From positions 18,029 to 82,028 of the forward strand of contig JAINCN010000030.1 in NCBI GenBank assembly GCA_036574075.1: DNA of 64,000 bases. Reading direction: 5' to 3'. A model generated the notes under the pieces. The model was given only the letters and a program-made list of their open reading frames with translations. It was not told the origin of the DNA and made no database searches. The position numbers and the translations under genes are program-made. The DNA comes from Deltaproteobacteria bacterium. Lineage in GTDB: Bacteria > Desulfobacterota > Dissulfuribacteria > Dissulfuribacterales > UBA5754. This document shows, in pieces, positions 23,978-52,195 of the stretch (positions are counted from its first letter, which is position 1; each line of letters begins with the position of its first letter).

Positions 23978-24454
23978 TTAAAGGGTCCCGCCATCCGGAT
24001 CCGGCGGGATCTCTCCGCCTTGTCCCTGTGCAATGGCGGTGCGGGCTAGCCTGTCGGCACGCTCGTTCTCTGGGTGCCCGGCATGTCCACGGATCCAGTG
24101 CCATGTCACCTTGTGGTAGGCACAGAGGGCGTCGAGTCGCTCCCAGAGGTCCTTGTTCTTGACCGGCTCTCGTGATGCGGTGAGCCATCCTTTTCGCTTC
24201 CAGGATGCGATCCATGTGGTCATCCCCTTCATCACGTATTGGGAGTCAGTGGTGATGGTCACCTCACAGGGCCGATTGAGGGCCTCGAGGGCCCGGATGG
24301 CCGCAAGGAGCTCCATCCGGTTGTTCGTCGTGCTGGGTGACCAGCCGCTCATCTCCCTTTCCGCTCCACGATATCTAAGGATCGCCCCCCAGCCTCCTGG
24401 CCCAGGGTTTCCGGAACAGGCGCCGTCCGTGTAGATCTCGACACGAGTCTTCAC
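23978..24454 (-). CDS. rnhA: ribonuclease HI
   Basis: [52 protein letters not shown]. Confidence 0.95.
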
Positions 24455-25179
24455 GGCCCATTGAGTCCGGTATAAAGGGTCACGATCCCGAGGGTGAGGG
24501 GACGGTAGCGGACCTCTGTAAAGCCTGCTGAGGCCATCATGCCGGCAAGGACCTCGGGCGCGTAGAAGCCCTGAATGGAGCTTGCGAGATAGGAATAGGC
24601 GGATTTGTCGCCCGAAAGGATCCCTCCGATGTGGGGAAGGACCTTGTGTAGATAAAACATGTAGATCGGACCGAGGACCGGGACCCTGGGCCGGGAAAAC
24701 TCGAGGATTGCGAGCTTTCCGCCGGGTACGAGAACCCTTCTCATCTCCTCCAGCCCCTTTTCCGTTCGGCTGAGGTTGCGGATCCCAAAGGCAATGGTGA
24801 TTCCCTGAAAGATACCATCGGGAAAAGGAAGCTCCTCACCGTCCCCGCACACTGGAAAGATCTCGTTCCGCCGTGCCTGGTAGCCCGAGCCCTTCATGCC
24901 TTGAAGGAGCATGTCAGGGCAAAAATCGACGGCAAATACACGTCCCGCCGGTCTTTGACGGGCGATCTCAACGGCAAGTGGAAGGGTCCCGGCGCAGAGA
25001 TCGAGGATCGGCCCGTCCGGCAGGGCAGCGACCTCGGCTGCCGTTATTCGCCTCCATGACCGGTCGATGGAAAGACTCAGGACAGAGTTCAGGAGATCGT
25101 AGCGATGGGCGACCGCGGCGAATTTGTCCCTGACGAACCGTCGTTTTAGATCGGGATCAGAGAGGGGGGCGGCCATCAT
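24451..25179 (-). CDS. ubiE: demethylmenaquinone/ubiquinone methyltransferase (UbiE/MenG)
   Basis: 242 aa; [20 protein letters not shown] motif [14 protein letters not shown]. Confidence 0.9.
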
Positions 25180-26012
25180 TCAGTAACCTCTTGAAAGGAG
25201 GAGGGGATCAGGCGAAGATCCAAGGCAGGGGGGATCTCGCCCCGGACCGAGAGACGGCGAAAAAATTCGAGAAGGCCCTGGCGTTTCGGCCCTGAGAAGT
25301 CATACTCGATCCCTTTGAGATAGGAAAGACATGCGGAGGGCGTAAGGGAGACCTTCGGGGCCACGATGGATGCGATGCGCACGAGCTCCCGCTGACCCGT
25401 CCGGACGCACGAAACGAGGCGGTCCCTCAGGGCTTCGACTGCGCTCCATGCCTCCTCCAGGACCTGGTTTCTCACGGCCCAGACAGCGAAGACAAAGGGA
25501 AGGCCGGTTTTTTGGAGCCAGATCTCGGCCAAATCAATCACGAGAAATTGCCTTTTGTTTCGGGCCAGTCTCAGGGCCTCGTCTCCGATGGCAAGATAGG
25601 CATCACTCGTCCCTACAGCAAGATCCTCCGAGGAACCCGCCTGGTACAGGGGACGGACGCAGAAAAAATCCTCGAGAAGGATCCGGAGCAGGGCGACCGA
25701 AGTGGCAGACTGTGGAGTAAGGGAGACGGTTTTGCCCCCGAGTTCTCCAATAGGGATGCGGCTCAGGAGGATCACGCTTTTGACCGCCCCGGTGGAGCTG
25801 ATGCAGAGCTCGGGCATAAGATGATAGGAATCGGGGTGGAGACCGTATTCAAAAGAGGAGATCATGCCCACGTCGATCTCTCCGGCATGGAGAAGACGGT
25901 TGAGTTCGGTTGGTGTGGCCTCGACCGACTCCCAGCCGGCAATGGGACCTGATTCGCGCCATGGGACCATTATGGGCGCAGTATTGATGTAGCGGACGAA
26001 TCCGACCTTCAT
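25176..26012 (-). CDS. mqnA: chorismate dehydratase MqnA (futalosine pathway)
   Basis: Starts MKVGFVRYINTAPIMVPW at ATG 26012, 5 nt after the upstream gene's stop; periplasmic-binding-like fold pattern. The 545-aa ORF in the track is an upstream read-through extension. Confidence 0.8.
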   Translation of the reverse strand: MKVGFVRYINTAPIMVPWRESGPIAGWESVEATPTELNRLLHAGEIDVGMISSFEYGLHPDSYHLMPELCISSTGAVKSVILLSRIPIGELGGKTVSLTPQSATSVALLRILLEDFFCVRPLYQAGSSEDLAVGTSDAYLAIGDEALRLARNKRQFLVIDLAEIWLQKTGLPFVFAVWAVRNQVLEEAWSAVEALRDRLVSCVRTGQRELVRIASIVAPKVSLTPSACLSYLKGIEYDFSGPKRQGLLEFFRRLSVRGEIPPALDLRLIPSSFQEVTE

Positions 26013-26016
26013 GGAC

Positions 26017-27315
26017 TCACTCCCATCTGGGAGGGTCACCGACCCAGGAGACAGGATCGGGTCCCCTAACCCCCTGGACAAGATACTCGAGGACTTCTCT
26101 GTCCCGGATCCCGTCGGCCCGGATCGCAAGGAACGTGGACCTGAAACCTGGATCAAGCCTGCCAATAGGGGCCTGGCGGCCTTCTTCTGCATCCAATCCG
26201 GGCCCCGAGAGGCCCAGGGCCCTGGCGCCGTGTTCTGTTGCCGCGGTGAGGATGCGCCCGGGCGGGATCGTGGGCGCCAGGGAGGCAAGGGATGACATCT
26301 CTGCAAAGATCGAAAGGGTGTCGTTGCTTGCAAGGCTGTCTGTCCCGAGGGCAAAGGGGATCCCGGCAGCTGCAAATCTCTCGACCTGCGGGATGCCGAC
26401 ATCCAGAAAGAGGTTGCTCCGAGGGCATAGACAGACAGATGCCCCGGTCTTTTTGAGGATTTCCAGATCATCGTCGTCCACATGAATGGCGTGGACGCAT
26501 ACCGTATTCGAATCGAGGACACCGAGCCTGTGGAGATATCGGATCGGAGAACAGCCGGGGATTTCCTCCTGGGCAATGCGGTGGCCCCGCTCCTTGAGAA
26601 GATCGAGGATGGGGCCGGTCCCTGAGAGGACAAACTCCATTTCCTCCGGAGATTCCGCAGTGTGGATCTGAAAGGGGATGCGGTGCTCCCGGTCCCAGGC
26701 CTTGGTGCGGATGATGACCTGGGAAGAGGCCGAGAAGACCGCATGGGAGGAAAGGCCAAAGGAGATCGCCACCCTTGCTCCGTTTTCCCCCTTTGGAAAA
26801 CCTCCTGTTTCAAAGGGTTGGAGGTCTTCGGGCCCTCCCCGAGGCTGGATGATCTCTCGGTAAAAGATGCCGGAAAAAGGCGGAAAGTCCTTCTCCTTTA
26901 AGGCGCGGGAGGCTATCCCGAGGTTTCCCACATCCCCTATGCCCAGGACTCCCCCCTCGAAAAGCCCGTGGGCCGCGCTCATGACGGCCGGGAGCCACTC
27001 GTCGGGAGAGATTCGGGAGCGGGCATCCACAAGGGAGCGCACCCAGGAGGAGAAGGAGCCGCTGGGAGAAATTCGCCACTTGAGGGGAGAGAGCTCCAGA
27101 TGACAATGGGCATTCACAAGGGGCGGAATGAGGACGGATGCGCCGTGGTCGATGGTCTCCCCGTGACAGGAGAGCAGGATCGCCTTTGCCTGCCCCGATG
27201 CCACGATCTTCCCCCCGAATGTGGCCACTGCCCCATCGGATATGACGATCCCGTCACCTGGGACGATCCACTTCGCCCGGTGTATGCAAAGGGTAGGGCA
27301 GGGGACGTCCTTCAC
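26017..27315 (-). CDS. amidohydrolase family protein (chlorohydrolase/deaminase-like; possible aminofutalosine deaminase)
   Basis: 432 aa; metal-binding NAHCHLELS, later HAVF, HTAES, HAIH, GTDS motifs of the amidohydrolase superfamily; embedded between mqnC and mqnA. Confidence 0.75.
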   Translation of the reverse strand: MKDVPCPTLCIHRAKWIVPGDGIVISDGAVATFGGKIVASGQAKAILLSCHGETIDHGASVLIPPLVNAHCHLELSPLKWRISPSGSFSSWVRSLVDARSRISPDEWLPAVMSAAHGLFEGGVLGIGDVGNLGIASRALKEKDFPPFSGIFYREIIQPRGGPEDLQPFETGGFPKGENGARVAISFGLSSHAVFSASSQVIIRTKAWDREHRIPFQIHTAESPEEMEFVLSGTGPILDLLKERGHRIAQEEIPGCSPIRYLHRLGVLDSNTVCVHAIHVDDDDLEILKKTGASVCLCPRSNLFLDVGIPQVERFAAAGIPFALGTDSLASNDTLSIFAEMSSLASLAPTIPPGRILTAATEHGARALGLSGPGLDAEEGRQAPIGRLDPGFRSTFLAIRADGIRDREVLEYLVQGVRGPDPVSWVGDPPRWE

Positions 27316-32238: not shown

Positions 32239-33810
32239 TTATGAGGGGATGAGTCCAAGGATATCCTCAAGAGGACGGGAGGTGTCTATGATCAAGGGCT
32301 GGTCGGACGGCAAGGCCTCATGGGGGTCAAACGTCTTCTTTTGCACCAGGTAGATCTCCCACCGTCCGTCGGAGACGGAAGTAGTGTCCGAAGCGCGCCT
32401 TTCCAGGCGTTGACGGACCACATCCTCGGGGCATTCACAGAGGATGAAACGGATCCTGGCGTTGGAACAGGCAGCAAGTTCCAGGAGGGCTGAACGCTCC
32501 CTGCCGTCCCGATACGTGGCATCGAGGACCACGGATTCCCCCCGCATGAGATGCCGACCCGCAAACCGTGCGAGGGCCGCGTAAGTCCTTCGGCTCATCT
32601 CACCCGAATAGATACCTGCCCCAAATGCCTCATGGCGCCGTTCCAGGGCAGGGATGCCGGCAACGATCTCCTTTCTCACCCGGTCCGAGTTGTAATAAGC
32701 AAGGCCCTTCCGCTCCGCCCAGGCCGAAGAAACCGTGCTTTTGCCAGTACCCGGAAGCCCATAGAAGACGTAAAGCTTGGGCCTGTCCTGAGTCGCTCCT
32801 GTGTAGCGATGGGCAAGGGCGAAGTATTCCCGGGCCGTCTGTTTAAAAAGATCCCGCTCACGGGGATCGAGCCCGTCCGCCATGCTCGTGAAGCAGTTGA
32901 TCTTTCCGCGCACATATGCCCTGTAACACTTGTAGAACGGAATGAGTTCGAGGAACATGTCGTCATTTGTCCGGCGGGCGAATTCATCAATGAACCGCTT
33001 AGAAAGGATGGGAAGGCCGTGAAAATCTAGGTCCATGGCGAGAAAGGCCACATCCGCAGCCACGTCTCCACACCGAAACCGTTCGTTGAATTCGATGCAA
33101 TCAAATATGTAGACGGTCTCTCGCGGACGGTCGAAACAGATGTTTGCGGAGTAAAGATCCCCGTGTCCTTCCTTGATCCATCCTCCCTGAATGCGTGCAT
33201 GAAAAAGGGCCTCTTTGTCCCGTATGAAACCTCGCGTGTAGGAGCGGATCGCATCAAAGGTCGGGCGTGATATTGCCGTATCTATAAAAGATTCGGTCTG
33301 ATCGAAATTTTCTTCTGTATTGCGAGAAATAATATCAAGTTTTCCGAACTCTGCGATCTTCTTTCCTGTCGCTGCCTCTTTTTCGTAAAAAGGCACGAGG
33401 CGGGAGACCACAAGGGACAGGTCCTTTTCTTCCAGCCTGTCTTCTGCTATCATTCGAGCCATCATCCCGTCTTCCGGCATGCGCTTCATCCTGACCGCCC
33501 ATTCCACCGGAGTTCCGGAGCCGTTCAGCTCGTACATGCCCGCCTCCTCGGTAATGGGTATGACATTAAGATAGATCTCCGGACAGAGGCGGCGGTTGAG
33601 GCGCACCTCTTCTTCGCAGAAATGTCGCCTCTTTTCCAGTGTTGTGAAATCGAGAAAGCCGAAATCTACGGGTTTTTTCACTTTGTAGACGAAATCCCCT
33701 GCGATAAAGACCCAGGAGATGTGTGTCTGGATGCAGATAACAGCGTCTGCATCGTGGGGATAGAAGGATGGTTTTTTCATCCACTCGAGCCATGGGGGGG
33801 GTGTTTTCAT
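32239..33810 (-). CDS. bifunctional aminoglycoside-phosphotransferase-like / P-loop kinase protein
   Basis: 523 aa; N-terminal APH-like region (HGDLYSANICF), C-terminal P-loop FYGLPGTGKSTVS. Confidence 0.7.
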   Translation of the reverse strand: MKTPPPWLEWMKKPSFYPHDADAVICIQTHISWVFIAGDFVYKVKKPVDFGFLDFTTLEKRRHFCEEEVRLNRRLCPEIYLNVIPITEEAGMYELNGSGTPVEWAVRMKRMPEDGMMARMIAEDRLEEKDLSLVVSRLVPFYEKEAATGKKIAEFGKLDIISRNTEENFDQTESFIDTAISRPTFDAIRSYTRGFIRDKEALFHARIQGGWIKEGHGDLYSANICFDRPRETVYIFDCIEFNERFRCGDVAADVAFLAMDLDFHGLPILSKRFIDEFARRTNDDMFLELIPFYKCYRAYVRGKINCFTSMADGLDPRERDLFKQTAREYFALAHRYTGATQDRPKLYVFYGLPGTGKSTVSSAWAERKGLAYYNSDRVRKEIVAGIPALERRHEAFGAGIYSGEMSRRTYAALARFAGRHLMRGESVVLDATYRDGRERSALLELAACSNARIRFILCECPEDVVRQRLERRASDTTSVSDGRWEIYLVQKKTFDPHEALPSDQPLIIDTSRPLEDILGLIPS

Positions 33811-33921
33811 GGAGGTGTGTCCTCGGTCTTTTTGAGCGTGAACGGGTGAGTAGATTTACATTTTTTGACTGATTACGTAATATGACACCTTGCTCACTAC
33901 CACAAAAGACGGGGTATCGCT

Positions 33922-34500
33922 ATGGCTGAAATACGAAGTTCCCTGGATATTGCTCTTGAAAAGGCCGCTCGGCTTGGCTCTGTCGACAAGGAAGAAATGG
34001 CGAGGGAGACACGGGTGGAACACGGTAGACGTCTGGCCGTAACGTTTCTCCAGTCCCGGGATGCCACGATGAGGTCCCTTCTCGAAGGTGTGGATCCCCA
34101 GGGCTTCCAGGATGTCATGACCGGGGTTTTGCAGGTCCTCATGAGGAATATCATCCTCCCCAGGGATGCACAAAGGACGGAGATTGACCGCGCCCTGACC
34201 GGAATCGGCGAGCTCAAGGGAAGCAGCGCTCGGGACATCCTTTCGCAGATCGACCAGCTCATCGATGCCTATATCAAGAACAAAAAACACTACTACGAAC
34301 AGTTGAAGGTCCAGATGGAAGGCAAGCTTGGGGGCCTGCAGGAGGCCATGGCTCAACAATATGGCATACGCGGCATGGCAAGGCTTTCGGCCGAATCCAT
34401 TCCCCAGTTCCAGCAGGAGTGGGCAAAACTCTCATCGGAAATAGACGAGCAGTTTCAGCAGAGGCTCGACTTGTTAAAGGCCAATCTGGAACATTTGTAG
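33922..34500 (+). CDS. hypothetical protein (helical)
   Basis: 192-aa ORF with coding-like composition; no motif I can name. Confidence 0.5.
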   Translation: MAEIRSSLDIALEKAARLGSVDKEEMARETRVEHGRRLAVTFLQSRDATMRSLLEGVDPQGFQDVMTGVLQVLMRNIILPRDAQRTEIDRALTGIGELKGSSARDILSQIDQLIDAYIKNKKHYYEQLKVQMEGKLGGLQEAMAQQYGIRGMARLSAESIPQFQQEWAKLSSEIDEQFQQRLDLLKANLEHL

Positions 34501-34502
34501 GC

Positions 34503-34653
34503 CCTGAATCCGTGAGCCTACGGCCGGAGTATTTGTTTCGTGCGGCAAATAGCCTCCTGTCCATGGGGGCGGATTTGCCGCTCAAGCCTATTTATGGGCG
34601 CCTCCATCCACAAATACCCCGGCCGTAGGCTTATGCTGTGAAATCGAAAGGTA
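34503..34653 (+). repeat. MITE-like element, copy D (right terminus replaced)
   Basis: cctgaatccgtgagcctacggccggagtatttgt...gaaatcgaaaggt, then abruptly continues into the family-2 repeat. Confidence 0.75.
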
Positions 34654-35190
34654 GGGAGGGGGTGCGGGGCAGTGCCTCATCGGCCGGATAACCGCTTTGG
34701 TGATGCAACTGCCTTTTCGGCCATGGACGCGAGGTGCCAAGTGAGGCCCTGCGGCCGCCTGCCCTGGCTTTCTGGATCCGGCCTGATTCAGCACTACCCC
34801 GCACCCCCTCCCTGGATTACATGGGCGTACTTCAAACCTTACACGAGGGTTTGGACGGATGGGTGCACGGCGCAAGTGGAGGCTGGTGGGGCGGGCCGTT
34901 GTGGAGGCGGGCGGATCCAGAAAGCCAGGATAAGCGGGCACCGGGCCTTGCATAGCACCTTGCGTCATCGGAAAAGACAGCCGCTACATCGCCAAAGCGG
35001 TTATCCGACCGCCGGAACAACGGCCCGCCCCACCTGCCCATGAATTTAGGCGGAAAGCGGATCCAGAAAGCCAGGATAAGCGGGCACCAGGCCTTGCATG
35101 GCACCTTGCGTCCTCGGACAAGACCGCCGCTGTATCGCCAAAGCGGTTATCCGACCGCCGGAACAACGGCCCGCCCCACCTGCCCATATT
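34653..35190. repeat. family-2 long hairpin repeats: one inverted unit plus two direct ~131-bp units
   Basis: Unit 1 (34653-34813) is bracketed by the perfect 17-bp inverted repeat agggagggggtgcgggg/ccccgcaccccctccct. Units 2 (34885-35034) and 3 (~35048-35180) share gcggatccagaaagccaggataagcgggcacc...ccaaagcggttatccgaccgccggaacaacggcccgccccacc, and unit 1 is their reverse complement at roughly 70-75% identity. Confidence 0.85.
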
Positions 35191-35299
35191 GAGGAATGCC
35201 TGACAGCCGGGAAACGGCAAGCTTGCCGAATCTGGCGGCCTTGTCTCCCCTGTATCATCCTATATGCGATGGCATTTATGGAACATGCGGGAGGCCGTC

Positions 35300-35584
35300 A
35301 TGGAGAACAGGGATCTCTATCTTGCTGCGTACGACATCACGGAGGCAAAGAGGCTCCGCGACGCCCTTAACGTACTAAAAGGCGTCTCCACTGGTGGCCA
35401 GAAGTCCGTATTCGAGTGTTTTCTCAACAACATCGAGAAGAAGGGGCTTCTTTCCCGGGTCGGCAGGATCCTGGATCCGGCTGAGGACCGGTTTCTCCTC
35501 CTTAGGCTCGATCCGCGTGCGCGGGTCCACACCCTCGGGATCGGGGTCGAGCCTTCCGATCCCCCGTTTTTCTATTTCGGGTGA
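35300..35584 (+). CDS. cas2: CRISPR-associated endoribonuclease Cas2 (copy a)
   Basis: 94 aa; MENRDLYLAAYDITEAKRLRDA...VFECFL...RFLLLRL ferredoxin-like Cas2 pattern with the N-terminal Asp; gggagg 6 nt upstream of ATG 35300. Confidence 0.85.
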   Translation: MENRDLYLAAYDITEAKRLRDALNVLKGVSTGGQKSVFECFLNNIEKKGLLSRVGRILDPAEDRFLLLRLDPRARVHTLGIGVEPSDPPFFYFG

Positions 35585-35588
35585 TGCC

Positions 35589-36563
35589 ATGGGAACGCTC
35601 TATCTCGACCGTTCAGGCCTGGAACTCCGGATCGACGGGGACGCCGTGGCCCTTTACACGCGTGGTGAAAGGAGCGGCACGGTCCCGATTGGCCTGCTCG
35701 AAAAGATCGTCATCAAGGGGGAGATTTCCTTAACGAGCAATGTCCTTGGAAGGCTTGCTGATGCCGGGGTATCTGTTCTCATGCTTTCGGCCCGTCACTC
35801 GCGAAGGGTCGCATTCGTGCACGGACGATTCCACAACGACGCCCGTATCCGGCTCGCCCACTACCGGGCCGTCCTTGACGACGAATACGCGCTTGGCTGG
35901 TCCCGCCGTATCGTCCGTGCGAAGATATCAGCCCAGGTCGCCTTTTTGAAAAGGGCCGGAGACGAGAAGCCGGAGGCCAAAAAGGACCTTTTCGGCCCCA
36001 TCGCCGGGCTCAAAAGCTGTGGTGAGGCCCTTTCAAACGCCGTCACCACCGACGGCGTACGAGGACTTGAGGGGGCCTCTGCAAGGCTCTATTTCGCGGG
36101 CCTTTCGCACCTCTTTCCGCCTTCGCTTCAATTCAACGGACGCAACAAGAGACCCCCTCGGGATCCTGTCAATGCAGTCCTTTCCCTCGCTTACACCCTT
36201 GCGCATCACGAGGCCGTGAGGGCCTGCCATCTGGCCGGCCTTGATCCGCTCCTCGGCTTTCTCCACAAGCCGGCCTGGGGCCGGGAATCCCTTGCCTGCG
36301 ATCTCATTGAGCCCTTTCGGCCCAGGCTGGATGCCTGGGTGTGGGGGTTATTCCGCGAAAGGATCCTCAGACCTGAGGATTTCCACCGGGACAAGGGTGC
36401 GGTCCTCCTCGGCAAGGCCGGACGTCACCGTTTCTACGAGGCATACGAGGCAAAGGGCCCAGTCTGGAGCCGGGCCCTCATCAGGCTCGCCCGTGCCCTT
36501 GCCTCCTCCGTGACGAAAAAGACCCCGGATCTCTTTCTTGCGGACGAGGAGGACGACTCATGA
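35589..36563 (+). CDS. cas1: CRISPR-associated endonuclease Cas1 (copy a, catalytic motifs intact)
   Basis: 324 aa; N-terminal beta domain TLYLDRSGLELRIDGDAVAL...; GLEGASARLYF (Glu), LDPLLGFLH (His), SLACDLIEPFRP (Asp/Glu). Confidence 0.9.
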   Translation: MGTLYLDRSGLELRIDGDAVALYTRGERSGTVPIGLLEKIVIKGEISLTSNVLGRLADAGVSVLMLSARHSRRVAFVHGRFHNDARIRLAHYRAVLDDEYALGWSRRIVRAKISAQVAFLKRAGDEKPEAKKDLFGPIAGLKSCGEALSNAVTTDGVRGLEGASARLYFAGLSHLFPPSLQFNGRNKRPPRDPVNAVLSLAYTLAHHEAVRACHLAGLDPLLGFLHKPAWGRESLACDLIEPFRPRLDAWVWGLFRERILRPEDFHRDKGAVLLGKAGRHRFYEAYEAKGPVWSRALIRLARALASSVTKKTPDLFLADEEDDS

Positions 36564-37342
36564 GAAGGCCGCTGTATCTCCTGAGAGGGGAAGGGACAGA
36601 GGTCCGGCTCGATGGACCCTCCCTCCTCGTTTCAGGCACACGCAGGGCGGACGGCCGTTACCCTCTGGCCCAGGTCAGCCGTGTGACCTCCGACAGCGCG
36701 GTCAGGTGGGAAACCGAGGCCATCATTGCATGCCTCGGAAGCCGCATCCCGGTGACGTTCGTCAGCGGCCGGGGCAGAATCATCGGATTCTGCCTGCCGG
36801 TCGGGGAGCTGAAATCCAGCAACGCATCGAAACTTCGTGAGTTTTTCGCCTTTCCGTTCTGGAAGGAGGTCTACGACAATTGGCTCTCAGCTGAGACGAG
36901 AAAGGCCGTTCTCGATCAACTCGATGCATTTCACGTCAGGACCGAGGATCTGAGGCCCATGGCGGCAAGGCGGTTTCTGCTTGACCGTGTAGCTGCAAAC
37001 GTGTCAAGGGCCGAGAGGGACCGGATCATGGACAGATTAAACGGGCTTGCTGGATCCCTCCTCGCAGGGCTCTTCTCCCATGAAAGGCTCCCAACCCGGT
37101 ATCCTGTTACAGGGGCAGGGGTGGTGAACCTGCACGAGGATTTCCTGTCCGTCATTTCCTGGGAGCTTTTGCCGATCGTAATGGAGGTTGCGAGAAGGGG
37201 CTACAGGGATCGCGATCCGAATAGCCTGGCCTTGCTTGTCGGCGCCTTCGAGAAGAGATCCACTGTGATCAAGGATCGGCATGCGCGACTCCTCGAAAGT
37301 CTTCTTCTGAGAATTCATGACGCCTACCTCGTTGGACAATGA
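36560..37342 (+). CDS. divergent Cas1-like protein (copy b, catalytic residues apparently lost)
   Basis: 260 aa; ATGA overlap with cas1a. The N-terminal PLYLLRGEGTEVRLDGPSLLV...IPVTFVSGRGRIIGFCLP parallels the Cas1 beta domain. The aligned GLEG reads GLAG, and no GFLH-type His motif was found. Confidence 0.6.
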   Translation: MRRPLYLLRGEGTEVRLDGPSLLVSGTRRADGRYPLAQVSRVTSDSAVRWETEAIIACLGSRIPVTFVSGRGRIIGFCLPVGELKSSNASKLREFFAFPFWKEVYDNWLSAETRKAVLDQLDAFHVRTEDLRPMAARRFLLDRVAANVSRAERDRIMDRLNGLAGSLLAGLFSHERLPTRYPVTGAGVVNLHEDFLSVISWELLPIVMEVARRGYRDRDPNSLALLVGAFEKRSTVIKDRHARLLESLLLRIHDAYLVGQ

Positions 37343-37345
37343 GTC

Positions 37346-37708
37346 ATGAGCGACCAAGGCAAGCGCCCCTATCTTGTTGCGTACGACATTGCTGATCCGA
37401 AAAGGCTCTGCCTCGTCCACAAGATCCTCACCAGATACGCCGTCCCTGTCCAGTATTCCGTGTTTATCGGCACCTTTACCCCCACGAACCTTGAGGCCCT
37501 CAAAAAGGAGCTTGTGCAGGTCATAGAAAATGACGAGGACGACATAAGAATGTATCCTATCTCACGCAACGCCGATCCCATCACCATCGGCCGGCACTTC
37601 CTGCCGGAGGATGTACTGCTTTTTATCCAGAACAAACGGGCTGATATCACGCCCCTTGTCAGGGGTGGAGTCCATGGGCATGATCTCTGCGACAAGAAGA
37701 AAAAATAG
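37346..37708 (+). CDS. cas2: CRISPR-associated Cas2 (copy b)
   Basis: 120 aa; KRPYLVAYDIADPKRL...VQYSVFIGTF...IRMYPI; 3-nt gap after cas1b. Confidence 0.85.
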   Translation: MSDQGKRPYLVAYDIADPKRLCLVHKILTRYAVPVQYSVFIGTFTPTNLEALKKELVQVIENDEDDIRMYPISRNADPITIGRHFLPEDVLLFIQNKRADITPLVRGGVHGHDLCDKKKK

Positions 37709-37809
37709 GAGGAAAAGTAAGCAAATGGCGAATTGGCTTTTCAAACGTTATCAAAATTGGCAAGGTGGCTTGTATGAGGCTGGAAATATTTCAAAAAAAA
37801 GGAGGAGCT
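37709..37809 (+). promoter_or_regulatory. putative CRISPR leader
   Basis: 101-bp AT-rich stretch between cas2b and the first repeat, with repeated attggc motifs and an A8 run. No promoter hexamers could be assigned confidently. Confidence 0.5.
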
Positions 37810-40800
37810 ATTGATCCGATTGCCCTGATGAAGAAGGGATTAAGACTTCCATGCAGAGATAAATCCGCCTAAATAGCACTGGCATTGATCCGATTGCCCT
37901 GATGAAGAAGGGATTAAGACACGGGAAAAGCCACCAACTTTCCCTGCTGGATCAATTGATCCGATTGCCCTGATGAAGAAGGGATTAAGACTCGTCGGTT
38001 ACGTGGGATATGATCAGTTGGGAGCCCGTCATTGATCCGATTGCCCTGATGAAGAAGGGATTAAGACGAAAAGACATGGCAACAATCACAGTAAGGAAAA
38101 AATTGATCCGATTGCCCTGATGAAGAAGGGATTAAGACCTCCATGCAGAGATAGACCCGCCGAAACAGAAATTGATCCGATTGCCCTGATGAAGAAGGGA
38201 TTAAGACACGTGAGCTGGGCGGAAACCCAGATTTTTCACGATTGATCCGATTGCCCTGATGAAGAAGGGATTAAGACCAGCAGCCGCGCAGCCAGATCGC
38301 GCGGCAGGCATTGATCCGATTGCCCTGATGAAGAAGGGATTAAGACCGTCGTGCCAGACGATGATCCGCGCAAATGAGGAATTGATCCGATTGCCCTGAT
38401 GAAGAAGGGATTAAGACGACAACGCACGTCGCTAATTCGAACACGCGTCGATTGATCCGATTGCCCTGATGAAGAAGGGATTAAGACAGATCAGTTTGTG
38501 CATAATCAGCAAATGTCTCGATTGATCCGATTGCCCTGATGAAGAAGGGATTAAGACCCAAGCCACAACTCTAATTTCGGACTGGGATAGAATTGATCCG
38601 ATTGCCCTGATGAAGAAGGGATTAAGACTTGAGTTTGATTTGTTTTCTTCCGGATCGTAAATTGATCCGATTGCCCTGATGAAGAAGGGATTAAGACAGG
38701 CTGAGGCCACCGATGCGGCAATAAACGCTATTGATCCGATTGCCCTGATGAAGAAGGGATTAAGACCTTCGCCCGTTTTTCATTGTTAACGGCCACGTAC
38801 ATTGATCCGATTGCCCTGATGAAGAAGGGATTAAGACTTATTAGTAGTTAATATAATCATCAATATCATCGATTGATCCGATTGCCCTGATGAAGAAGGG
38901 ATTAAGACTACAACAATCGCCATTTTTTTGCCCTCCTTAATATTGATCCGATTGCCCTGATGAAGAAGGGATTAAGACATTTCCCATTCTGCTTCTTCAT
39001 CCTCATCCTATTGATCCGATTGCCCTGATGAAGAAGGGATTAAGACTTGCCGATTAGGGCAAGTACTTTTTGCTCAGGTGTATTGATCCGATTGCCCTGA
39101 TGAAGAAGGGATTAAGACCGCTTGCGAGCGCTCTTGCCGATTCTCATCTATTAATTGATCCGATTGCCCTGATGAAGAAGGGATTAAGACTGACATTCCT
39201 CCTTCATTTATGTTTAGTGTTTTATTGATCCGATTGCCCTGATGAAGAAGGGATTAAGACCATTGTGCCCCTTGGGTTGGGATGGCGGCGCTATTGATCC
39301 GATTGCCCTGATGAAGAAGGGATTAAGACTTTTCCCTCTGTTGATTGTTAACGGACACGTACTATTGATCCGATTGCCCTGATGAAGAAGGGATTAAGAC
39401 AGATCATGGAGATTTTTTTGAACTTGAAACCCATTGATCCGATTGCCCTGATGAAGAAGGGATTAAGACTCGACGCTGTCCCATATTTTCATTTCCCATA
39501 CTATTGATCCGATTGCCCTGATGAAGAAGGGATTAAGACTTCTGTAGGATAATAACTATCAACAAGATCTTGGTATTGATCCGATTGCCCTGATGAAGAA
39601 GGGATTAAGACTGATTTGCCTTGCAGACCTCAGCGTCTGCAACATTGATCCGATTGCCCTGATGAAGAAGGGATTAAGACCCCTCGTTCTTGCAAAACTT
39701 GATTAATCCCTTGATTGATCCGATTGCCCTGATGAAGAAGGGATTAAGACATCCGGGCCGTCGATGTCCCGGATCCATGCATTGATCCGATTGCCCTGAT
39801 GAAGAAGGGATTAAGACCAGGGCGCTTGAAGATGTTGAGCCTGTCGGCATTGATCCGATTGCCCTGATGAAGAAGGGATTAAGACCGTTGCCTGCGCGCG
39901 GATTTTTAAAGCGCTTGCAAGTGGATTGATCCGATTGCCCTGATGAAGAAGGGATTAAGACCTCTCAAGGGGAGCCATCAAGAAAAGGGCGCCGCCTATA
40001 TTGATCCGATTGCCCTGATGAAGAAGGGATTAAGACGCCTTGTGTTGGGTAAGATTCAAAATTTTCACATTGATCCGATTGCCCTGATGAAGAAGGGATT
40101 AAGACAGAGATTATAGATTTCAGAAATAATTTCACCATCATTGATCCGATTGCCCTGATGAAGAAGGGATTAAGACCCGACCCTTAAGGTCATCATAGGG
40201 CTCGCCCTTGATTGATCCGATTGCCCTGATGAAGAAGGGATTAAGACGAGATCCGGGCCATCAATATCCCGGATCCAGGCCCATTGATCCGATTGCCCTG
40301 ATGAAGAAGGGATTAAGACCGACCTTTTGACTTATATCTCTTGTGAGTGTTCATTGATCCGATTGCCCTGATGAAGAAGGGATTAAGACTTGTGGGCAAT
40401 GTACTTGCCCACAAGGGCCATTACTTTCATTGATCCGATTGCCCTGATGAAGAAGGGATTAAGACACGAGGGGTTACCTTGCTTTCGGGCGTCCACTGCC
40501 ATTGATCCGATTGCCCTGATGAAGAAGGGATTAAGACGCCCCGAGGGTTAAGTTAGCCCTCAGGGCTTGTATCATTGATCCGATTGCCCTGATGAAGAAG
40601 GGATTAAGACCATAATCTTTCCTCCTTTAAATTAAGATTTATCGGCATTGATCCGATTGCCCTGATGAAGAAGGGATTAAGACTAGAAGACCGGAGCAGT
40701 TTCCAGTACATCCACATTGATCCGATTGCCCTGATGAAGAAGGGATTAAGACTTCCATAGATAGACGCCGTACCATCCATAAATATGGATTGATCCGATT

Positions 40801-42237
40801 GCCCTGATGAAGAAGGGATTAAGACACCGGCCTGATCCATGACTTTCTGAAAACTTGTATCTATTGATCCGATTGTCCTGATGAAGAAGGGATTAAGACG
40901 AAGGCGGATAACCCGCCTTTTCTCGTTTTTCGATTGATCCGATTGCCCTGATGAAGAAGGGATTAAGACTTTTTCTTAAGTGTGATTGTTGCCATTTTCT
41001 TCTATTGATCCGATTGCCCTGATGAAGAAGGGATTAAGACCCTATTAAGGCAAGCACTTTTTGCTCCGGCGTTAATTGATCCGATTGCCCTGATGAAGAA
41101 GGGATTAAGACAGCTCGGCGCAGTGTTCTTCGGGGACATCCACGATTGATCCGATTGCCCTGATGAAGAAGGGATTAAGACACCATGACCCCGGAGTGTA
41201 GCATGCCTGCCTTATTGATCCGATTGCCCTGATGAAGAAGGGATTAAGACTCCACGGACTGGGAAAGCTGTCAGCTTCCCATCAATTGATCCGATTGCCC
41301 TGATGAAGAAGGGATTAAGACTTATTGGTCGCGATATATTTCGCGACCAAGGTAAATTGATCCGATTGCCCTGATGAAGAAGGGATTAAGACCTATTTCG
41401 ATGCCACGACCATAAATAGACGACTCCATTGATCCGATTGCCCTGATGAAGAAGGGATTAAGACCCCCGAGCTTGTTAGGCTCGGGGTTGGAGCTCCATT
41501 GATCCGATTGCCCTGATGAAGAAGGGATTAAGACCGAATTTGATTTAGAATTAAGTGCTCTTTTTAATTGATCCGATTGCCCTGATGAAGAAGGGATTAA
41601 GACTTTTGCTCACTGTCCATGTGCGCAACGATTTTTATTGATCCGATTGCCCTGATGAAGAAGGGATTAAGACAGATAAAGACTGTTTCATAATTTCCTC
41701 CTTTATTAGATTGATCCGATTGCCCTGATGAAGAAGGGATTAAGACCGAATTTGATTTAGAATTAAGTGCTCTTTTTAATTGATCCGATTGCCCTGATGA
41801 AGAAGGGATTAAGACAGGCAGAGTCTATAGACTCTGCCTCTCCATGCATTGATCCGATTGCCCTGATGAAGAAGGGATTAAGACGAGCCCCAGTTTCCCA
41901 ATCTACTTCCGGGGCTGGGATTGATCCGATTGCCCTGATGAAGAAGGGATTAAGACGAAAGAGCCATGGGGACCTCCTTTTTTTGTTTATCATTGATCCG
42001 ATTGCCCTGATGAAGAAGGGATTAAGACGCACTAACTTTGAGTACTCTCTCCTTTCCTCCGATTGATCCGATTGCCCTGATGAAGAAGGGATTAAGACAG
42101 AAGTTTTTTCCATGGTTTCCTCCTTTCGTCATTGATTCGATTGCCCTGATGAAGAAGGGATTAAGACAATAAGCGGGACCAATGCCTCGTTCTGCTTAGG
42201 ATTGATCCGATTGCCATGATGAAGACTGTAGGGGCGA
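37810..42237 (+). CRISPR. CRISPR array: 63 repeats of 37 nt, 62 spacers of 30-39 nt
   Basis: Repeat ATTGATCCGATTGCCCTGATGAAGAAGGGATTAAGAC. Variants are R44 (40863, gattgTcctg), R62 (42131, attgatTcg) and the degenerate terminal R63 (42201, attgatccgattgccAtgatgaagaCTGTAGGGGCG). I parsed every unit: spacer lengths sum to 2097 nt. Orientation is set by cas-proximal leader, distal decay and the ATTAAGAC 3' end. Confidence 0.97.
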
Positions 42238-42293
42238 AAAATTTTCGTCCCTACAATTACTTTGATCCGATTGCCGGATGCACTGCGCTTATC
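42226..42293. repeat. REP-like palindromes and a repeat fragment at the array's distal end
   Basis: tgtaggggcgaaaaattttcgtccctaca hairpin, repeat fragment ttgatccgattgcc (42253-42266), then ccggatgcactgcgcttatccgg hairpin. Confidence 0.6.
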
Positions 42294-49924: not shown

Positions 49925-52195
49925 CTACCAGACCCCGCGAAGCCCCAACTCCTTGCGCACCTTGTCCACCCGCCGCTCGAGATCCACCCTCCATTCGGCG
50001 TGGATCCGGGCGGCCGAGGGAGGGATGAGCTCCGGAAGGCCGTAAACGATACGATCCTCGGCCTGGCTCGTTTCGATGACCGCCTCAAGGGACCGTGCCC
50101 CGAACTTGTAGCGCGCAAGGAGAAGCCGGAGCAAAAGGCCTGAGGTCTTCCGCGCGGCCTTCTTCCAGTGGGTGTTCATCTGGTGGGCGATGACAAAGGC
50201 CCGTTTTATGAGAATCCGGTGCAGTTCGTCCAGCTCTTCGGGGCTGGCCGAATCGCTGAGAAGGCGGTCCGGAATCTCTATCCCCTCGATGTCCATGACT
50301 ACACGGAGCCTGCTCATGAAGTCCGGGATCTTGAGTGCTTTGACCGTATTCCAAGCGGACTTATCCTGCCGGGCAAGAAGCCCCAGCATGTCGTTCCAAG
50401 ACTCCTTGACCCCGCCTGCGAAAACAAAGATGGAGCGCCCGATGTAGCGAGGTGTGCCGTGGACGTATGTAACCCCGTCCTGCATGGAGGGTAGGAAATA
50501 ACGGAGATATCCGAACTCGTCGCCGTTGTAACGGCAGTCGAACTCGTCCCAGAAGGCGATGGGGATCTTCCCCTTTGCCACCGACGCCCTCACGAGATCG
50601 ATTGCCGAGTTGATCTCCTCAGGACCGGAAAACTGGGTGAGGTTGAACTGGAACAACTCAAAGGGATTTACCGTAAACCTTCGCGCCACGATTCGGGACA
50701 CCTCTTCCACAGCGAAGGATTTGCCGGATCCTGGAGGGCCGAAGACGCCGATGCAAAGTGGGCGCTTCACGAATTCCTTTGTGACGTAGCTTTCCATCAC
50801 CCCTTGGAGAGAGATGACGGGCTCGATCTCCGCGGGATCGACCGTGACAAAGGCACCCATCCTGAAGAGGCGCAGGTCGTCGAAACCGCCCCTGCGGTTG
50901 ACCTCCTCTTTCAGGCGGTGGAGAACAGAGAGGATCACCCGGAAGTATTCGGGGCGGAGCGCGCAGGCCTGTCCCAGGCCGAGCGTCCTCTCTTCAATAC
51001 CCCGGGTCGGACGCAGGAAAGACCTGAGGGCGGCCTTCCTCTCCATGCTCCATTCCTGGGATGAGACGAGTTCGAGGGTACGGTCGAAATCGGGACCTGG
51101 CTGCGGAAGATCGAAAAAATACACATCATCTCCGCGATCGAGGAAACTGGCCGGGGCCCCATTGGGATAGGTGGAGACGAAATCCAGGTTTGGGAACTCG
51201 AGCCCGTCTGTAAAATAATACCCATGGACAAAGATCTGGACCCAGTGCCGAAGGACCCGTTTGGAATAGTCGTAAAAAAAATTCCGCTGGGCAGGCACTT
51301 CTCCAAGTCTAAGACAGTCTACGACGAGCATGGCTGGGGCCAAGGTGTCATAGCAGGGAACGGACCCGGTCCGCCGGTTCGAGCCCCTGTCGGGTCGACT
51401 CCCCCTACCCTCCCTGTGCCTGAAATAGATGCCACAGGGCCCAGCATACAGAATCCCCCCTGGATACATCTGAACGATGACATGACACCGAAAGCGAGCC
51501 TGGTTGGCGTCCCAGAGGCCCACCTCCGGGCTCTTGAGCGCCCTCAGGATCATGGCGCAGACCGACTCCCAGAGGATGGCCGCATCCATCTCCATGCGGG
51601 ACGTATCGAGATCGGAACGGCGGCAAAAAAGGACGAACGATTCCCCGAACTCTCCGGCCCATTCCTCCCAACGTGCAGCAGATATCCCCATGGCCACGAC
51701 CCACGCCTCCGGGTTCAGCTCCTTCATCTGGCACGCGATTGCGGGCGGGGCACCTCCATCGTCTATTACGATGATCCCGGCGTTTCCACAAAGATGCTCC
51801 CTGGGATATTGCGCCAGGTCAAATTCCTCTGCCTCCACATGGCGTCCACCCGGCGGCAGGATCTGATGGACCATGAACCATCCATGCCCGCTCGATCCAT
51901 CGAGAAACCTCAACTGCTTGAAGATCTGGAAGATCTTTCTTTCCCTGCCATACGCTAAGGTTCGAATCTGGGGGGTGAGGCCGGCTGTCGTCAGAAAGGA
52001 CGAAAGCCACGTGAGAAACTGTTCCGAACGCCCCTCCTCCACAGTGACGTTTCCTGCGAGAAGCTCAATGAAATCACCAGGATCGTAGCCGTAGTCAGGA
52101 AGGCTCCCCTGGGCGAGCATCCGGACCTCCTGTACTGGCAGGTTTGTTATGGTCGCTCGGGAACCTAGGACAAGGATCTTTTTCTCAAGAGACAT
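49925..52195 (-). CDS. AAA+ ATPase with large uncharacterised N-terminal region
   Basis: 756 aa; Walker A GVFGPPGSGKSF, Walker B IAFWDEFD, FVFAGG sensor-like motif in the C-terminal third. I could not assign the first ~450 aa to any family. Confidence 0.7.
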   Translation of the reverse strand: MSLEKKILVLGSRATITNLPVQEVRMLAQGSLPDYGYDPGDFIELLAGNVTVEEGRSEQFLTWLSSFLTTAGLTPQIRTLAYGRERKIFQIFKQLRFLDGSSGHGWFMVHQILPPGGRHVEAEEFDLAQYPREHLCGNAGIIVIDDGGAPPAIACQMKELNPEAWVVAMGISAARWEEWAGEFGESFVLFCRRSDLDTSRMEMDAAILWESVCAMILRALKSPEVGLWDANQARFRCHVIVQMYPGGILYAGPCGIYFRHREGRGSRPDRGSNRRTGSVPCYDTLAPAMLVVDCLRLGEVPAQRNFFYDYSKRVLRHWVQIFVHGYYFTDGLEFPNLDFVSTYPNGAPASFLDRGDDVYFFDLPQPGPDFDRTLELVSSQEWSMERKAALRSFLRPTRGIEERTLGLGQACALRPEYFRVILSVLHRLKEEVNRRGGFDDLRLFRMGAFVTVDPAEIEPVISLQGVMESYVTKEFVKRPLCIGVFGPPGSGKSFAVEEVSRIVARRFTVNPFELFQFNLTQFSGPEEINSAIDLVRASVAKGKIPIAFWDEFDCRYNGDEFGYLRYFLPSMQDGVTYVHGTPRYIGRSIFVFAGGVKESWNDMLGLLARQDKSAWNTVKALKIPDFMSRLRVVMDIEGIEIPDRLLSDSASPEELDELHRILIKRAFVIAHQMNTHWKKAARKTSGLLLRLLLARYKFGARSLEAVIETSQAEDRIVYGLPELIPPSAARIHAEWRVDLERRVDKVRKELGLRGVW

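What the first reader, a model, noticed from the sequence alone, without database searches (positions are those of the whole stretch)
38909..42130. Spacers are biased towards being antisense to Shine-Dalgarno + ATG gene starts, suggesting transcript targeting
Reverse-complementing the spacers reveals textbook translation-initiation regions in at least five. S16 (38909) reads aaggagggcaaaaaaATGgcgatt. S40 (40611) reads aaaggaggaaagattATG. S55 (41674) reads aaggaggaaattATGaaacag. S59 (41957) reads aaggaggtccccATGgctctt. S61 (42099) reads aaggaggaaaccATGgaaaaa. S45 (40970) is antisense to ATGgcaacaatcaca. Only one spacer (S4, 38068) carries a gene start in the sense orientation. With the array transcribed left to right, these crRNAs would be complementary to the 5' ends of mRNAs. 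That is the orientation required by RNA-guided, transcription-dependent (type III-like) interference. The sample is small (6 versus 1), and the orientation of the other spacers cannot be judged without their targets.
Basis: inference. Interest (0 to 1): 0.6.

Follow-up and report, generated by a model that had tools for sequence, protein, structure and literature searches.

The report
Type III CRISPR array, antisense-biased spacers
This is a 62-spacer CRISPR array of the RNA-targeting type III kind whose spacers mostly point antisense to phage messenger RNAs, several covering ribosome-binding sites and start codons; type III arrays are already known to do this, so it is a clear example and not a new phenomenon.

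Summary
The array has 62 perfect 37-nt repeats (37810-42167) plus two decayed repeats at the right end. Seven spacers carry GGAGG when reverse-complemented and none carries it in the forward direction. Six have Shine-Dalgarno plus ATG in reverse complement, against 0.84 expected from shuffles (P=0.0006). The spacer set as a whole is strand-asymmetric (purine fraction 0.445, p=7e-5). In three of four spacer pairs taken from related targets, the differences are best read as synonymous in a reverse-complement frame.

All features tested point to left-to-right transcription. The adaptation genes beside the array (cas2-cas1-inactive cas1'-cas2) lie directly downstream of Cmr or Csm effector operons in all five homologous loci examined. 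A near-identical repeat follows a Cmr operon in another genome. The type III reading is therefore supported, although no effector gene lies in this window.

No protospacer was found in any database, so PAM and true strand could not be tested directly. Enrichment for gene starts beyond the strand bias is only suggestive (about 2-5 fold). Coding-strand bias, PAM-free integration in either orientation, hairpin-rich spacers and start-codon hotspots are all published for type III systems. The four-gene adaptation module is the least-described part.

The parts
35264..35584 (+). cas2a, the first Cas2 of the adaptation module; the true start is probably near 35300, giving 94 aa
   Evidence: Pfam PF09827 CRISPR_Cas2, E=7.9e-11. 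A 94-aa Cas2 sits at the same position in L001, L002, L004, L009, L011 and L012.
35589..36563 (+). cas1, the catalytic integrase (324 aa). The listed ORF from 35394 carries a spurious N-terminal extension.
   Evidence: PF01867, E=2.5e-75; TIGR00287. It is 97% identical to the 324-aa P0001. Invariant columns include E161, H226, D238 and E241; assigning these to the canonical Cas1 catalytic residues is my inference.
36560..37342 (+). cas1', a degenerate Cas1 paralog (260 aa) that is probably catalytically inactive
   Evidence: Only the N-terminal ~80 aa match PF01867. hhalign against the Cas1 profile gives 89% probability over 231 columns. The alignment has no invariant acidic or histidine residue in the C-terminal half, and the Cas1 motif GLEGA reads GLAGS. 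PDB hits are limited to the Cas1 N-terminal domain.
37346..37708 (+). cas2b, the second Cas2 (120 aa), 27% identical to cas2a
   Evidence: TIGR01573 cas2, E=1.3e-10; BLASTP of cas2a against cas2b gives E=2e-6.
37709..37809 (+). leader, with an A-rich tract next to the first repeat
   Evidence: Sequence. The leader aligns with L001, and the A-tract is shared with L009.
37810..42276 (+). CRISPR array: 62 repeats ATTGATCCGATTGCCCTGATGAAGAAGGGATTAAGAC (60 exact, 2 with one mismatch), spacers of 30-39 nt, then a truncated repeat at 42201 and a remnant at 42262
   Evidence: There are sub-threshold Rfam CRISPR-DR32 hits on the + strand. The hairpin lies 8 nt from the repeat's 3' end.
38068..38101 (+). 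S4: gene start (ATGGCAACAATCACA) in sense orientation, so the crRNA is presumably non-functional. It is the same site as S45, inverted.
38909..38941 (+). S16: antisense to AAGGAGGgcaaaaaaATGgcg
39191..39223 (+). S20: antisense to an AAGGAGG Shine-Dalgarno sequence
40611..40646 (+). S40: antisense to AAAGGAGGaaagattATG
40970..41003 (+). S45: antisense to the gene start ATGGCAACAATCACA (M A T I T)
41674..41709 (+). S55: antisense to AAAGGAGGaaattATGaaacag
41957..41991 (+). S59: antisense to AAAGGAGGtccccATGgct
42029..42061 (+). S60: antisense to the SD-like GGAGGAAAGGAGAG
42099..42130 (+). S61: antisense to AAAGGAGGaaaccATGgaaaaa
42227..42255 (+). 13-bp hairpin directly after the truncated repeat, a possible terminator at the end of the array
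   Evidence: Terminator-like site on the + strand. One such site is also expected by chance, so this is weak evidence.

Best explanation
This is the adaptation module and CRISPR array of a type III (Cmr/III-B-like) system in a deltaproteobacterial MAG. I infer the following mechanism. The array is transcribed from the leader at 37709-37809, left to right. A Cas6-type enzyme cuts each repeat at the 3' base of the CCCU/AGGG hairpin and leaves an 8-nt AUUAAGAC 5' handle. The crRNAs are loaded into a Cas10-containing effector complex encoded elsewhere in the genome. That complex is activated only when the crRNA pairs with a transcript.

Spacers appear to be captured without a PAM and inserted in either orientation; the S4/S45 pair shows this directly. 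Spacers whose crRNA is complementary to phage mRNA protect the cell and are kept, so the standing array is strongly antisense-biased: about 15 antisense against 1-3 sense among the spacers whose orientation can be read. Ribosome-binding sites and start codons are the most easily recognised part of an mRNA, which is why the bias shows up there.

A modest excess of 5'-proximal sites and of hairpin-forming sites probably reflects the transcription-linked and structure-linked capture preference published for type III-A. Shown here: the array anatomy and direction, the orientation asymmetry, the either-way insertion, and the association of this Cas1 family and this repeat with type III operons. Inferred: crRNA processing, the existence of an effector in this genome, and selection as the cause of the bias.
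For: Array anatomy and direction.

Orientation asymmetry: GGAGG 7 reverse-complement against 0 forward; SD+ATG 6 against 0, with shuffle P=0.0006. Purine fraction is 0.445, p=7e-5, and p=0.002 without the SD spacers. The complement therefore has purine 0.555, close to the 0.544 of lambda's mRNA-sense strand. In S28/S35 the 4 differences are all synonymous only in reverse-complement frame 0 (AWIRDIDGPD). In S18/S46 the count is 5 synonymous and 0 non-synonymous in a reverse-complement frame, against 4 and 1 in the best forward frame. S1/S5 favours a reverse-complement frame, with AGG/CGG both coding Arg.

Either-way insertion: S4 and S45 occupy the same 34-nt register in opposite strands.

Type III context: for homologous loci; for a near-identical repeat downstream of Cmr3-Cmr4-Cmr5-Cmr6-Csm6-cas2-cas1-cas1'-cas2 in OZ242021.1.

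Same trend in relatives: the ratio of CCTCC to GGAGG is 20 to 5 over 183 spacers from four arrays, p=0.004.

Other type III-like traits: spacer lengths of 30-39 nt and no terminal-nucleotide bias; hairpin-rich spacers, 13 of 61 with z<-2 against 6.9% of host fragments, p=0.007.

Literature: type III arrays prefer the coding strand, for example Moraxella III-B at 88% (PMC8482600). Type III-A integration is PAM- and orientation-independent, favours hairpins, and peaks 10-50 nt after start codons (PMC8860593). Type III-A has an early-promoter hotspot that is enhanced when translation is blocked (PMC13575424).
Against: No cas10, cmr, csm or cas6 gene is in the 64-kb window, and the region upstream of cas2a holds unrelated genes and a 146-bp tandem repeat. 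An effector in this genome is therefore assumed and not seen.

No protospacer was recovered from INPHARED, PLSDB, IMG/VR, JGI metagenomes or a protein word search. True target strand, PAM and anti-tag could not be checked.

S4, and the terminator-like S44 and S6, look sense-oriented. One pair (S14/S22) gives no clear frame. A codon-usage strand classifier did not transfer between genomes and gave no signal. In host genes the sense strand is not purine-rich (0.498), so the purine argument relies on the targets behaving like lambda-type phages.
Confidence: 0.8

Rival explanations
1. The strand bias is set at acquisition and not by selection. Under this view the four-protein module (Cas2a, Cas1, inactive Cas1', Cas2b) forms an asymmetric integrase. 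It captures transcription-exposed single-stranded DNA (or RNA:DNA hybrids) near promoters, RBSs or start codons and inserts it in a defined orientation.
For: The module is conserved and specific to type III neighbourhoods. Cas1' lacks the catalytic residues, and cas2a and cas2b are only 27% identical, so a complex without two-fold symmetry is plausible. RBS/start sites are about 2-5 fold over a lambda-like expectation: 6 of 61 against 1.9%, P=0.0009, but P=0.06 against a geometric upper bound of 4.5%. Spacers are hairpin-rich. The same sites are sampled repeatedly with near-identical boundaries from variant targets. Transcription-dependent capture is published for type III-A (PMC13575424).
Against: S4 and S45 show that the same site can enter in both orientations. 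In type III-A the capture hotspots exist but orientation is random and the bias comes from selection (PMC8860593). There is no biochemical evidence for this module. Related arrays show a weaker bias.
Confidence: 0.12
2. The array serves a DNA-targeting (type I-like) effector. The strand asymmetry would then arise because the target phages have co-oriented genes and a PAM or replication-strand preference, and not because RNA is the target.
For: NCBIfam scores for Cas1 are highest for the Cas4g/Cas1g, I-C and I-D models, all below their family cut-offs. No effector is visible in the window. Types I-A and I-B also show a coding-strand preference (PMC8482600).
Against: All five Cas1-family neighbourhoods examined are type III. 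There is no Cas4. The first and last spacer positions show no strong nucleotide bias. S4/S45 inversion argues against PAM-directed orientation. Spacer lengths are broad, 30-39 nt.
Confidence: 0.05
3. The pattern is a chance or compositional artefact: pyrimidine-rich spacers simply happen to contain CCTCC and CAT.
For: From base composition alone about 2 CCTCC and about 1 GGAGG are expected in the set.
Against: SD+ATG at correct spacing is seen 6 times against 0.84 expected, P=0.0006. An independent signal comes from synonymous substitutions in spacer pairs. The whole-set purine asymmetry itself needs an explanation. Three related arrays show the same direction of bias.
Confidence: 0.03

Closest known systems
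Type III-B (Cmr) CRISPR-Cas loci with their own cas1-cas2, such as the Moraxella III-B arrays analysed by Vink et al. 2021 (PMC8482600)
   Same: 37-nt repeats with a small hairpin and an 8-nt 3' tag region. Variable spacer length. A strong bias for crRNAs complementary to the coding strand (88% reported there; about 83-94% of the readable spacers here). No sign of a PAM.
   Different: The effector operon is not next to the array, nor anywhere in 64 kb. The adaptation module has four genes (cas2-cas1-cas1'-cas2) where the usual module has cas1-cas2. The targets are absent from the public databases searched.
Streptococcus thermophilus type III-A adaptation (PMC8860593, PMC13575424)
   Same: PAM-independent insertion in either orientation (S4/S45). 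Over-representation of hairpin or partially palindromic spacers. Excess of spacers at or near translation starts. A natural array dominated by mRNA-complementary spacers.
   Different: That is a Csm system with a single Cas1 and a single Cas2, and the published peak lies 10-50 nt downstream of the start codon. Here the sites span roughly -20 to +15 and include the SD. Here the evidence is an evolved array and not an acquisition experiment.
RT-Cas1 type III systems (Marinomonas mediterranea, Vibrio vulnificus; PMC6821258, PMC11014452)
   Same: A type III-specific, specialised adaptation module linked to transcribed sequences.
   Different: No reverse transcriptase domain is present in or near cas1 here. 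RT systems are reported to show no orientation bias at acquisition (PMC9048733).

Membership tests
CRISPR array | Many near-identical direct repeats of 23-50 nt separated by unique spacers of similar length | tested here: met
   62 repeats of 37 nt (60 exact) and 61-62 spacers of 30-39 nt.
CRISPR array | Adjacent cas1 and cas2 adaptation genes and a leader | tested here: met
   cas2a, cas1, cas1' and cas2b lie at 35264-37708 on the + strand, followed by a 101-nt leader.
Type III CRISPR-Cas (Cas10 effector; Cmr or Csm) | cas10 plus Cmr/Csm RAMP subunit genes in the same locus or genome | tested here: not met
   None is present in the 64-kb window. The rest of the MAG could not be read. In five homologous loci the same adaptation module directly follows Cmr or Csm operons. 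Membership therefore rests on the adaptation module and the repeat, and not on an observed effector.
Type III CRISPR-Cas (Cas10 effector; Cmr or Csm) | Repeat of the type used by a type III effector: Cas6-type hairpin and 8-nt 5' handle | tested here: met
   The hairpin ends 8 nt from the repeat's 3' end. The last 23 nt, CCTGATGRAGAAGGGATTAAGAC, are shared with arrays beside Cmr operons in L002, L004 and L009.
Type III CRISPR-Cas (Cas10 effector; Cmr or Csm) | crRNAs complementary to transcripts (coding-strand bias of protospacers) | tested here: inconclusive
   Indirect tests are all in the expected direction. No protospacer was found, so no direct mapping was possible.
Type III CRISPR-Cas (Cas10 effector; Cmr or Csm) | No PAM; self is distinguished by tag/anti-tag pairing | not testable with these tools
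   This needs protospacer flanks. Two indirect hints exist: no terminal-nucleotide bias in the spacers and the S4/S45 inversion.
Type III CRISPR-Cas (Cas10 effector; Cmr or Csm) | Array transcribed in the direction that yields those crRNAs | tested here: inconclusive
   All sequence-based indicators agree on left to right. No RNA data are available.
RT-Cas1 adaptation | Reverse transcriptase domain fused to or adjacent to Cas1 | tested here: not met
   Cas1 matches only PF01867, and none of the neighbouring ORFs I scanned matched an RT family.
Type I systems with Cas4-directed, PAM-dependent adaptation | cas4, cas3 and cascade genes; spacer orientation fixed by the PAM | tested here: not met
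   None of these genes is in the window or in the homologous loci. The same site is inserted in both orientations.

The most novel reading that the evidence does not exclude
The conserved, type III-specific four-gene adaptation module (Cas2a, catalytic Cas1, catalytically dead Cas1', Cas2b) may build an asymmetric integrase. Such a complex could couple spacer capture to transcription or translation-initiation regions, and possibly fix spacer orientation, so that part of the antisense and RBS bias would be generated at acquisition and not only by selection. In the searches I ran, I found no paper describing this module.
Probability: 0.12. Interest if true: 0.75.

Novelty: new member of a known kind. 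Interest (0 to 1): 0.3.

Why it matters
The locus shows that the orientation of a CRISPR array's spacers can be read from the spacers alone when no target is known. Three signals do this: ribosome-binding sites, synonymous differences between spacer pairs from related targets, and purine skew. Here they assign an array with no effector gene in its 64-kb window to RNA-guided type III immunity. It also extends to a Cmr-type system several acquisition traits measured experimentally only in Streptococcus type III-A: insertion in either orientation, hairpin preference and start-proximal sites. The most useful lead is the widespread cas2-cas1-cas1'-cas2 module. If it proves to be an asymmetric, transcription-aware integrase, it would bear on the open question of how DNA-sampling type III systems obtain spacers that match RNA.

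Tried and rejected
Protospacer searches all returned nothing:
- All 62 spacers against 50,697 GenBank phages and 72,556 plasmids, blastn with E up to 1.
- Codon-degenerate patterns from spacer pairs, and exact cores of S16, S55 and S61, against IMG/VR.
- Two JGI metagenome scans.
- A concatenate of 15 translated spacer peptides against 5.8 billion proteins. It gave 11 word candidates and none scored.
- Spacers against the rest of the window and all fetched loci. There was no self-target and only short chance matches.

A codon-usage log-odds classifier for sense against antisense, trained on the window's genes, reached only 49-57% on genes from other loci. It also mis-called spacers of known orientation, so I discarded it.

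A G-at-codon-position-1 statistic gave 37 against 10 in the antisense direction (p=1e-4). It calibrated poorly on high-GC host genes, so I treat it only as evidence of asymmetry.

Look-ups meant to extend the contig beyond the window returned only short Logan contigs with no cas genes. A first exact-match look-up of the 389-aa Cas1 ORF failed because that ORF is over-extended at its N terminus. Sigma-70 promoter scans of the leader were at chance level.
Full report
**What is there**

Positions 37810-42167 hold 62 copies of the 37-nt repeat ATTGATCCGATTGCCCTGATGAAGAAGGGATTAAGAC. Sixty are exact; the copies at 40863 and 42131 each have one mismatch. They are separated by 61 spacers of 30-39 nt. 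A truncated repeat follows at 42201 and a remnant at 42262, which adds a 62nd spacer.

Directly upstream, all on the + strand, are four adaptation genes:
- cas2a at 35264/35300-35584 (Pfam Cas2);
- cas1, whose true start is near 35589 (324 aa, 97% identical to P0001);
- a 260-aa Cas1-like gene, cas1', at 36560-37342;
- cas2b at 37346-37708.

A 101-nt leader follows. The ORFs I scanned elsewhere in the window matched housekeeping or unassigned families (flagellar genes, futalosine menaquinone pathway, nadA, lolA, purL, mutS, cell-wall enzymes). None matched cas10, cmr, csm, cas6, cas3 or cas4. Exact-sequence look-up places the window in an 87.7-kb contig of an NCBI MAG labelled Deltaproteobacteria bacterium.

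**Check of the observation**

Two further spacers, S20 and S60, also carry a Shine-Dalgarno sequence in reverse complement.
- GGAGG occurs in the reverse complement of 7 spacers (S16, S20, S40, S55, S59, S60, S61) and in the forward strand of none.
- An SD followed by ATG at 3-11 nt occurs 6 times in reverse complement and never forward.
- Shuffling each spacer gives 0.84 expected for SD+ATG (P=0.0006) and 2.04 for GGAGG (P=0.004).

**The asymmetry extends to the whole spacer set**

Mean purine content on the crRNA-sense strand is 0.445, with 41 spacers pyrimidine-rich and 17 purine-rich (Wilcoxon p=7e-5). Removing the SD-bearing spacers still gives p=0.002. The complementary strand thus has 0.555 purine, close to the 0.544 of the mRNA-sense strand of phage lambda. 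Spacers drawn equally from both strands would average 0.50.

**An independent test from spacer pairs**

Several spacers are variants of the same site taken from related targets: S1/S5, S14/S22, S18/S46, S28/S35 and the identical S53/S56. By eye from the translations, S18 and S37 overlap on the same gene, and S42/S51, S41/S47 and S2/S49 also look related. Results for the four aligned pairs:
- S28/S35: all four differences are synonymous only in one reverse-complement frame (AWIRDIDGPD).
- S18/S46: five of five are synonymous in a reverse-complement frame (TPEQKVLALIG), against four of five in the best forward frame.
- S1/S5: a reverse-complement frame is favoured (LFRR[IV]YLCME, with AGG/CGG both coding Arg).
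- S14/S22: uninformative.

Counting the SD/start spacers and these pairs, about 15 spacers read as antisense. S4 reads as sense, and S44 and S6 look like forward-oriented terminators.

**S4 and S45**

These two spacers cover the same 34-nt window around a start codon (ATGGCAACAATCACA), from two variant targets, in exactly the same register but on opposite strands. This shows directly that insertion orientation is not fixed by a PAM.

**Direction of transcription**

Every sequence feature I examined points left to right, although some are weak:
- The cas genes and the leader are upstream on the + strand.
- Repeat decay is confined to the right end.
- The repeat's minimum-free-energy fold is a CCCU/AGGG hairpin that ends exactly 8 nt before the repeat's 3' end. 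A Cas6-type cut there would leave an AUUAAGAC handle.
- The 3' 23 nt of the repeat are the part conserved among related arrays, while the 5' part varies.
- A 13-bp hairpin follows the truncated repeat on the + strand. The scan expects about one such site by chance, so this is weak evidence.

No RNA data exist for this locus.

**Which type of system**

Cas1 has thousands of relatives. Five with long contigs were inspected. In each one the order is cas2, cas1, a Cas1-like gene of 254-284 aa, and cas2, and the module lies immediately downstream of a type III operon:
- Cas10/Cmr2-Cmr3-Cmr4-Cmr5-Cmr6, with Cas6, Csx1-like or Card1-like genes, in L002/L003, L004/L005 and L011;
- a Csm-type operon in L012;
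- Cmr3-Cmr4-Cmr5-Cmr6-Csm6 in L009.

L009 was found by scanning one genome per species for the 29-nt repeat core. Its repeat, GTTATTCCGATTGCCCTGATGAAGAAGGGATTAAGAC, matches the window's in the last 31 of 37 positions. The same scan found two contigs of a sulfidic-cave MAG that correspond to the trailer side of this window.

The adaptation module and the repeat therefore belong to type III systems, mostly III-B. In this window the effector operon is missing from its usual place. In that position, just upstream of cas2a, lie a 146-bp tandem repeat and unrelated genes. Whether the genome has an effector elsewhere could not be determined.

**Targets**

No protospacer was found. The searches were:
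- all spacers against GenBank phages and PLSDB plasmids;
- codon-degenerate and exact patterns against IMG/VR and JGI metagenomes;
- a 15-peptide concatenate against 5.8 billion proteins;
- spacers against the window itself and the fetched loci.

PAM, anti-tag and true strand therefore remain untested. [quoted passage not shown]

**Is there a bias towards gene starts, and not only in orientation?**

In lambda, 1.9% of mRNA-sense 34-mers match the SD+ATG pattern. The observed 6 of 61 is significant against that rate (P=0.0009). Against a geometric upper bound of 3-4.5% for a gene-dense phage in which every gene has a strong SD, P is 0.01-0.06. The enrichment is about 2-5 fold and only suggestive. 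The SD-bearing spacers lie mostly towards the older end of the array (p=0.04).

**Related arrays**

Three arrays with the same repeat family lean the same way but more weakly. CCTCC against GGAGG is 3:2, 8:3 and 2:0. Pooled with the window the count is 20:5 over 183 spacers, p=0.004. SD-like motif plus ATG in the three related arrays is 8 reverse-complement against 3 forward.

**Comparison with what is known**

Coding-strand bias of type III arrays is established, for example 88% in Moraxella III-B (PMC8482600). It is attributed to selection, because only mRNA-complementary crRNAs work (PMC9048733, PMC8860593). For S. thermophilus type III-A, the published traits are PAM- and orientation-independent integration, a broad spacer size range, a preference for hairpin-forming DNA, a peak 10-50 nt after start codons, and an early-promoter hotspot that grows when translation is blocked (PMC8860593, PMC13575424).

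This array shows matching traits: the S4/S45 inversion; spacer lengths of 30-39 nt with no terminal-base bias; and hairpin-rich spacers, 13 of 61 with folding z<-2 against 6.9% of host fragments, p=0.007. The finding is thus a clear new example of a known behaviour, in a Cmr-type lineage.

**The less ordinary part**

The adaptation module is unusual. Cas1' aligns to Cas1 (hhalign 89% probability over 231 columns), but only its N-terminal domain is recognisably conserved. The invariant E, H, D and E residues of Cas1 have no counterpart in it, and the Cas1 motif GLEGA reads GLAGS. The two Cas2 proteins are 27% identical. Five literature searches found no description of this module.

A Cas1/Cas1' plus Cas2a/Cas2b complex would lack the two-fold symmetry of canonical integrases. 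Whether that affects the choice or orientation of spacers is open. S4/S45 argues that orientation is at least not strictly fixed.

**Verdict**

Confidence is about 0.8 that this is a type III array whose spacers are kept because their crRNAs pair with phage transcripts. Novelty is low: a new member of a known kind. The four-gene adaptation module is a side lead worth following.

Noticed in passing
window 35264-37708; also L001, L002, L004, L009, L011, L012: The adaptation module has four genes: cas2a, cas1, a Cas1 paralog lacking the catalytic residues (cas1'), and a second, divergent cas2. It is conserved next to Cmr and Csm operons in distant lineages. Five literature searches found no description of it.
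   Followed up: partly
window 38068-38101 (S4) and 40970-41003 (S45): The same 34-nt site around a start codon, from two variant targets, is inserted in exactly the same register but in opposite orientations.
   Followed up: yes
window array; e.g. S57 41816-41847, S50 41322-41355, S39 40538-40573, S37 40390-40428, S52 41465-41497, S44 40900-40932: Spacers are unusually hairpin-forming: 13 of 61 have folding z<-2 against 6.9% of host fragments, p=0.007. S44 and S6 look like intrinsic terminators in the forward orientation.
   Followed up: partly
window array: S1/S5, S14/S22, S18/S46/S37, S28/S35, S42/S51, S41/S47, S2/S49; S53 (41535-41566) = S56 (41747-41778): The array repeatedly samples the same few sites from diverged variants of its targets, often with nearly the same boundaries. 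One spacer is present twice. The related arrays L004 and L009 show the same habit on inspection of their spacer lists.
   Followed up: partly
window 34911-35187 and 33856-35260: A 146-bp tandem repeat (1.9 copies, 94% matches) and unassigned small ORFs lie where homologous loci carry the cmr/csx genes. This suggests the effector operon was lost or moved by rearrangement.
   Followed up: no
window 38558-38577 (first 20 nt of S11) and L010 (phage lambda J02459) 24105-24124: There is an exact 20-nt match between the start of spacer S11 and the lambda b region, with no similarity beyond it. It is unexpected by chance (E=4e-6 in that small search) but has no supporting context, so it is probably a coincidence.
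   Followed up: partly
window 37709-37809: The leader contains AGGAGG followed by ATG at 37726, opening a small frame that runs into the first repeat. It also has an A-tract plus GGAGGAGC abutting repeat 1. The A-tract is shared with L001 and L009.
   Followed up: no
L002 820-1508, L005 3113-3774, L011 3330-4021 and 5460-6097: PIN/PhdYeFM (and PIN/RHH) toxin-antitoxin pairs are inserted on the opposite strand inside the cmr operons of the homologous loci.
   Followed up: no
window 32239-33810 (-) and 49925-52195 (-): Two large proteins remain unassigned. One is 523 aa with a C-terminal AAA_33/zeta-toxin-like kinase domain. The other is 756 aa with only a faint AAA/MoxR match.
   Followed up: no
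window 25176-26813 (-): A 545-aa ORF with no family match overlaps the amidohydrolase gene at 26017-27315 by about 800 nt in another frame. At least its upstream part is probably not coding.
   Followed up: no
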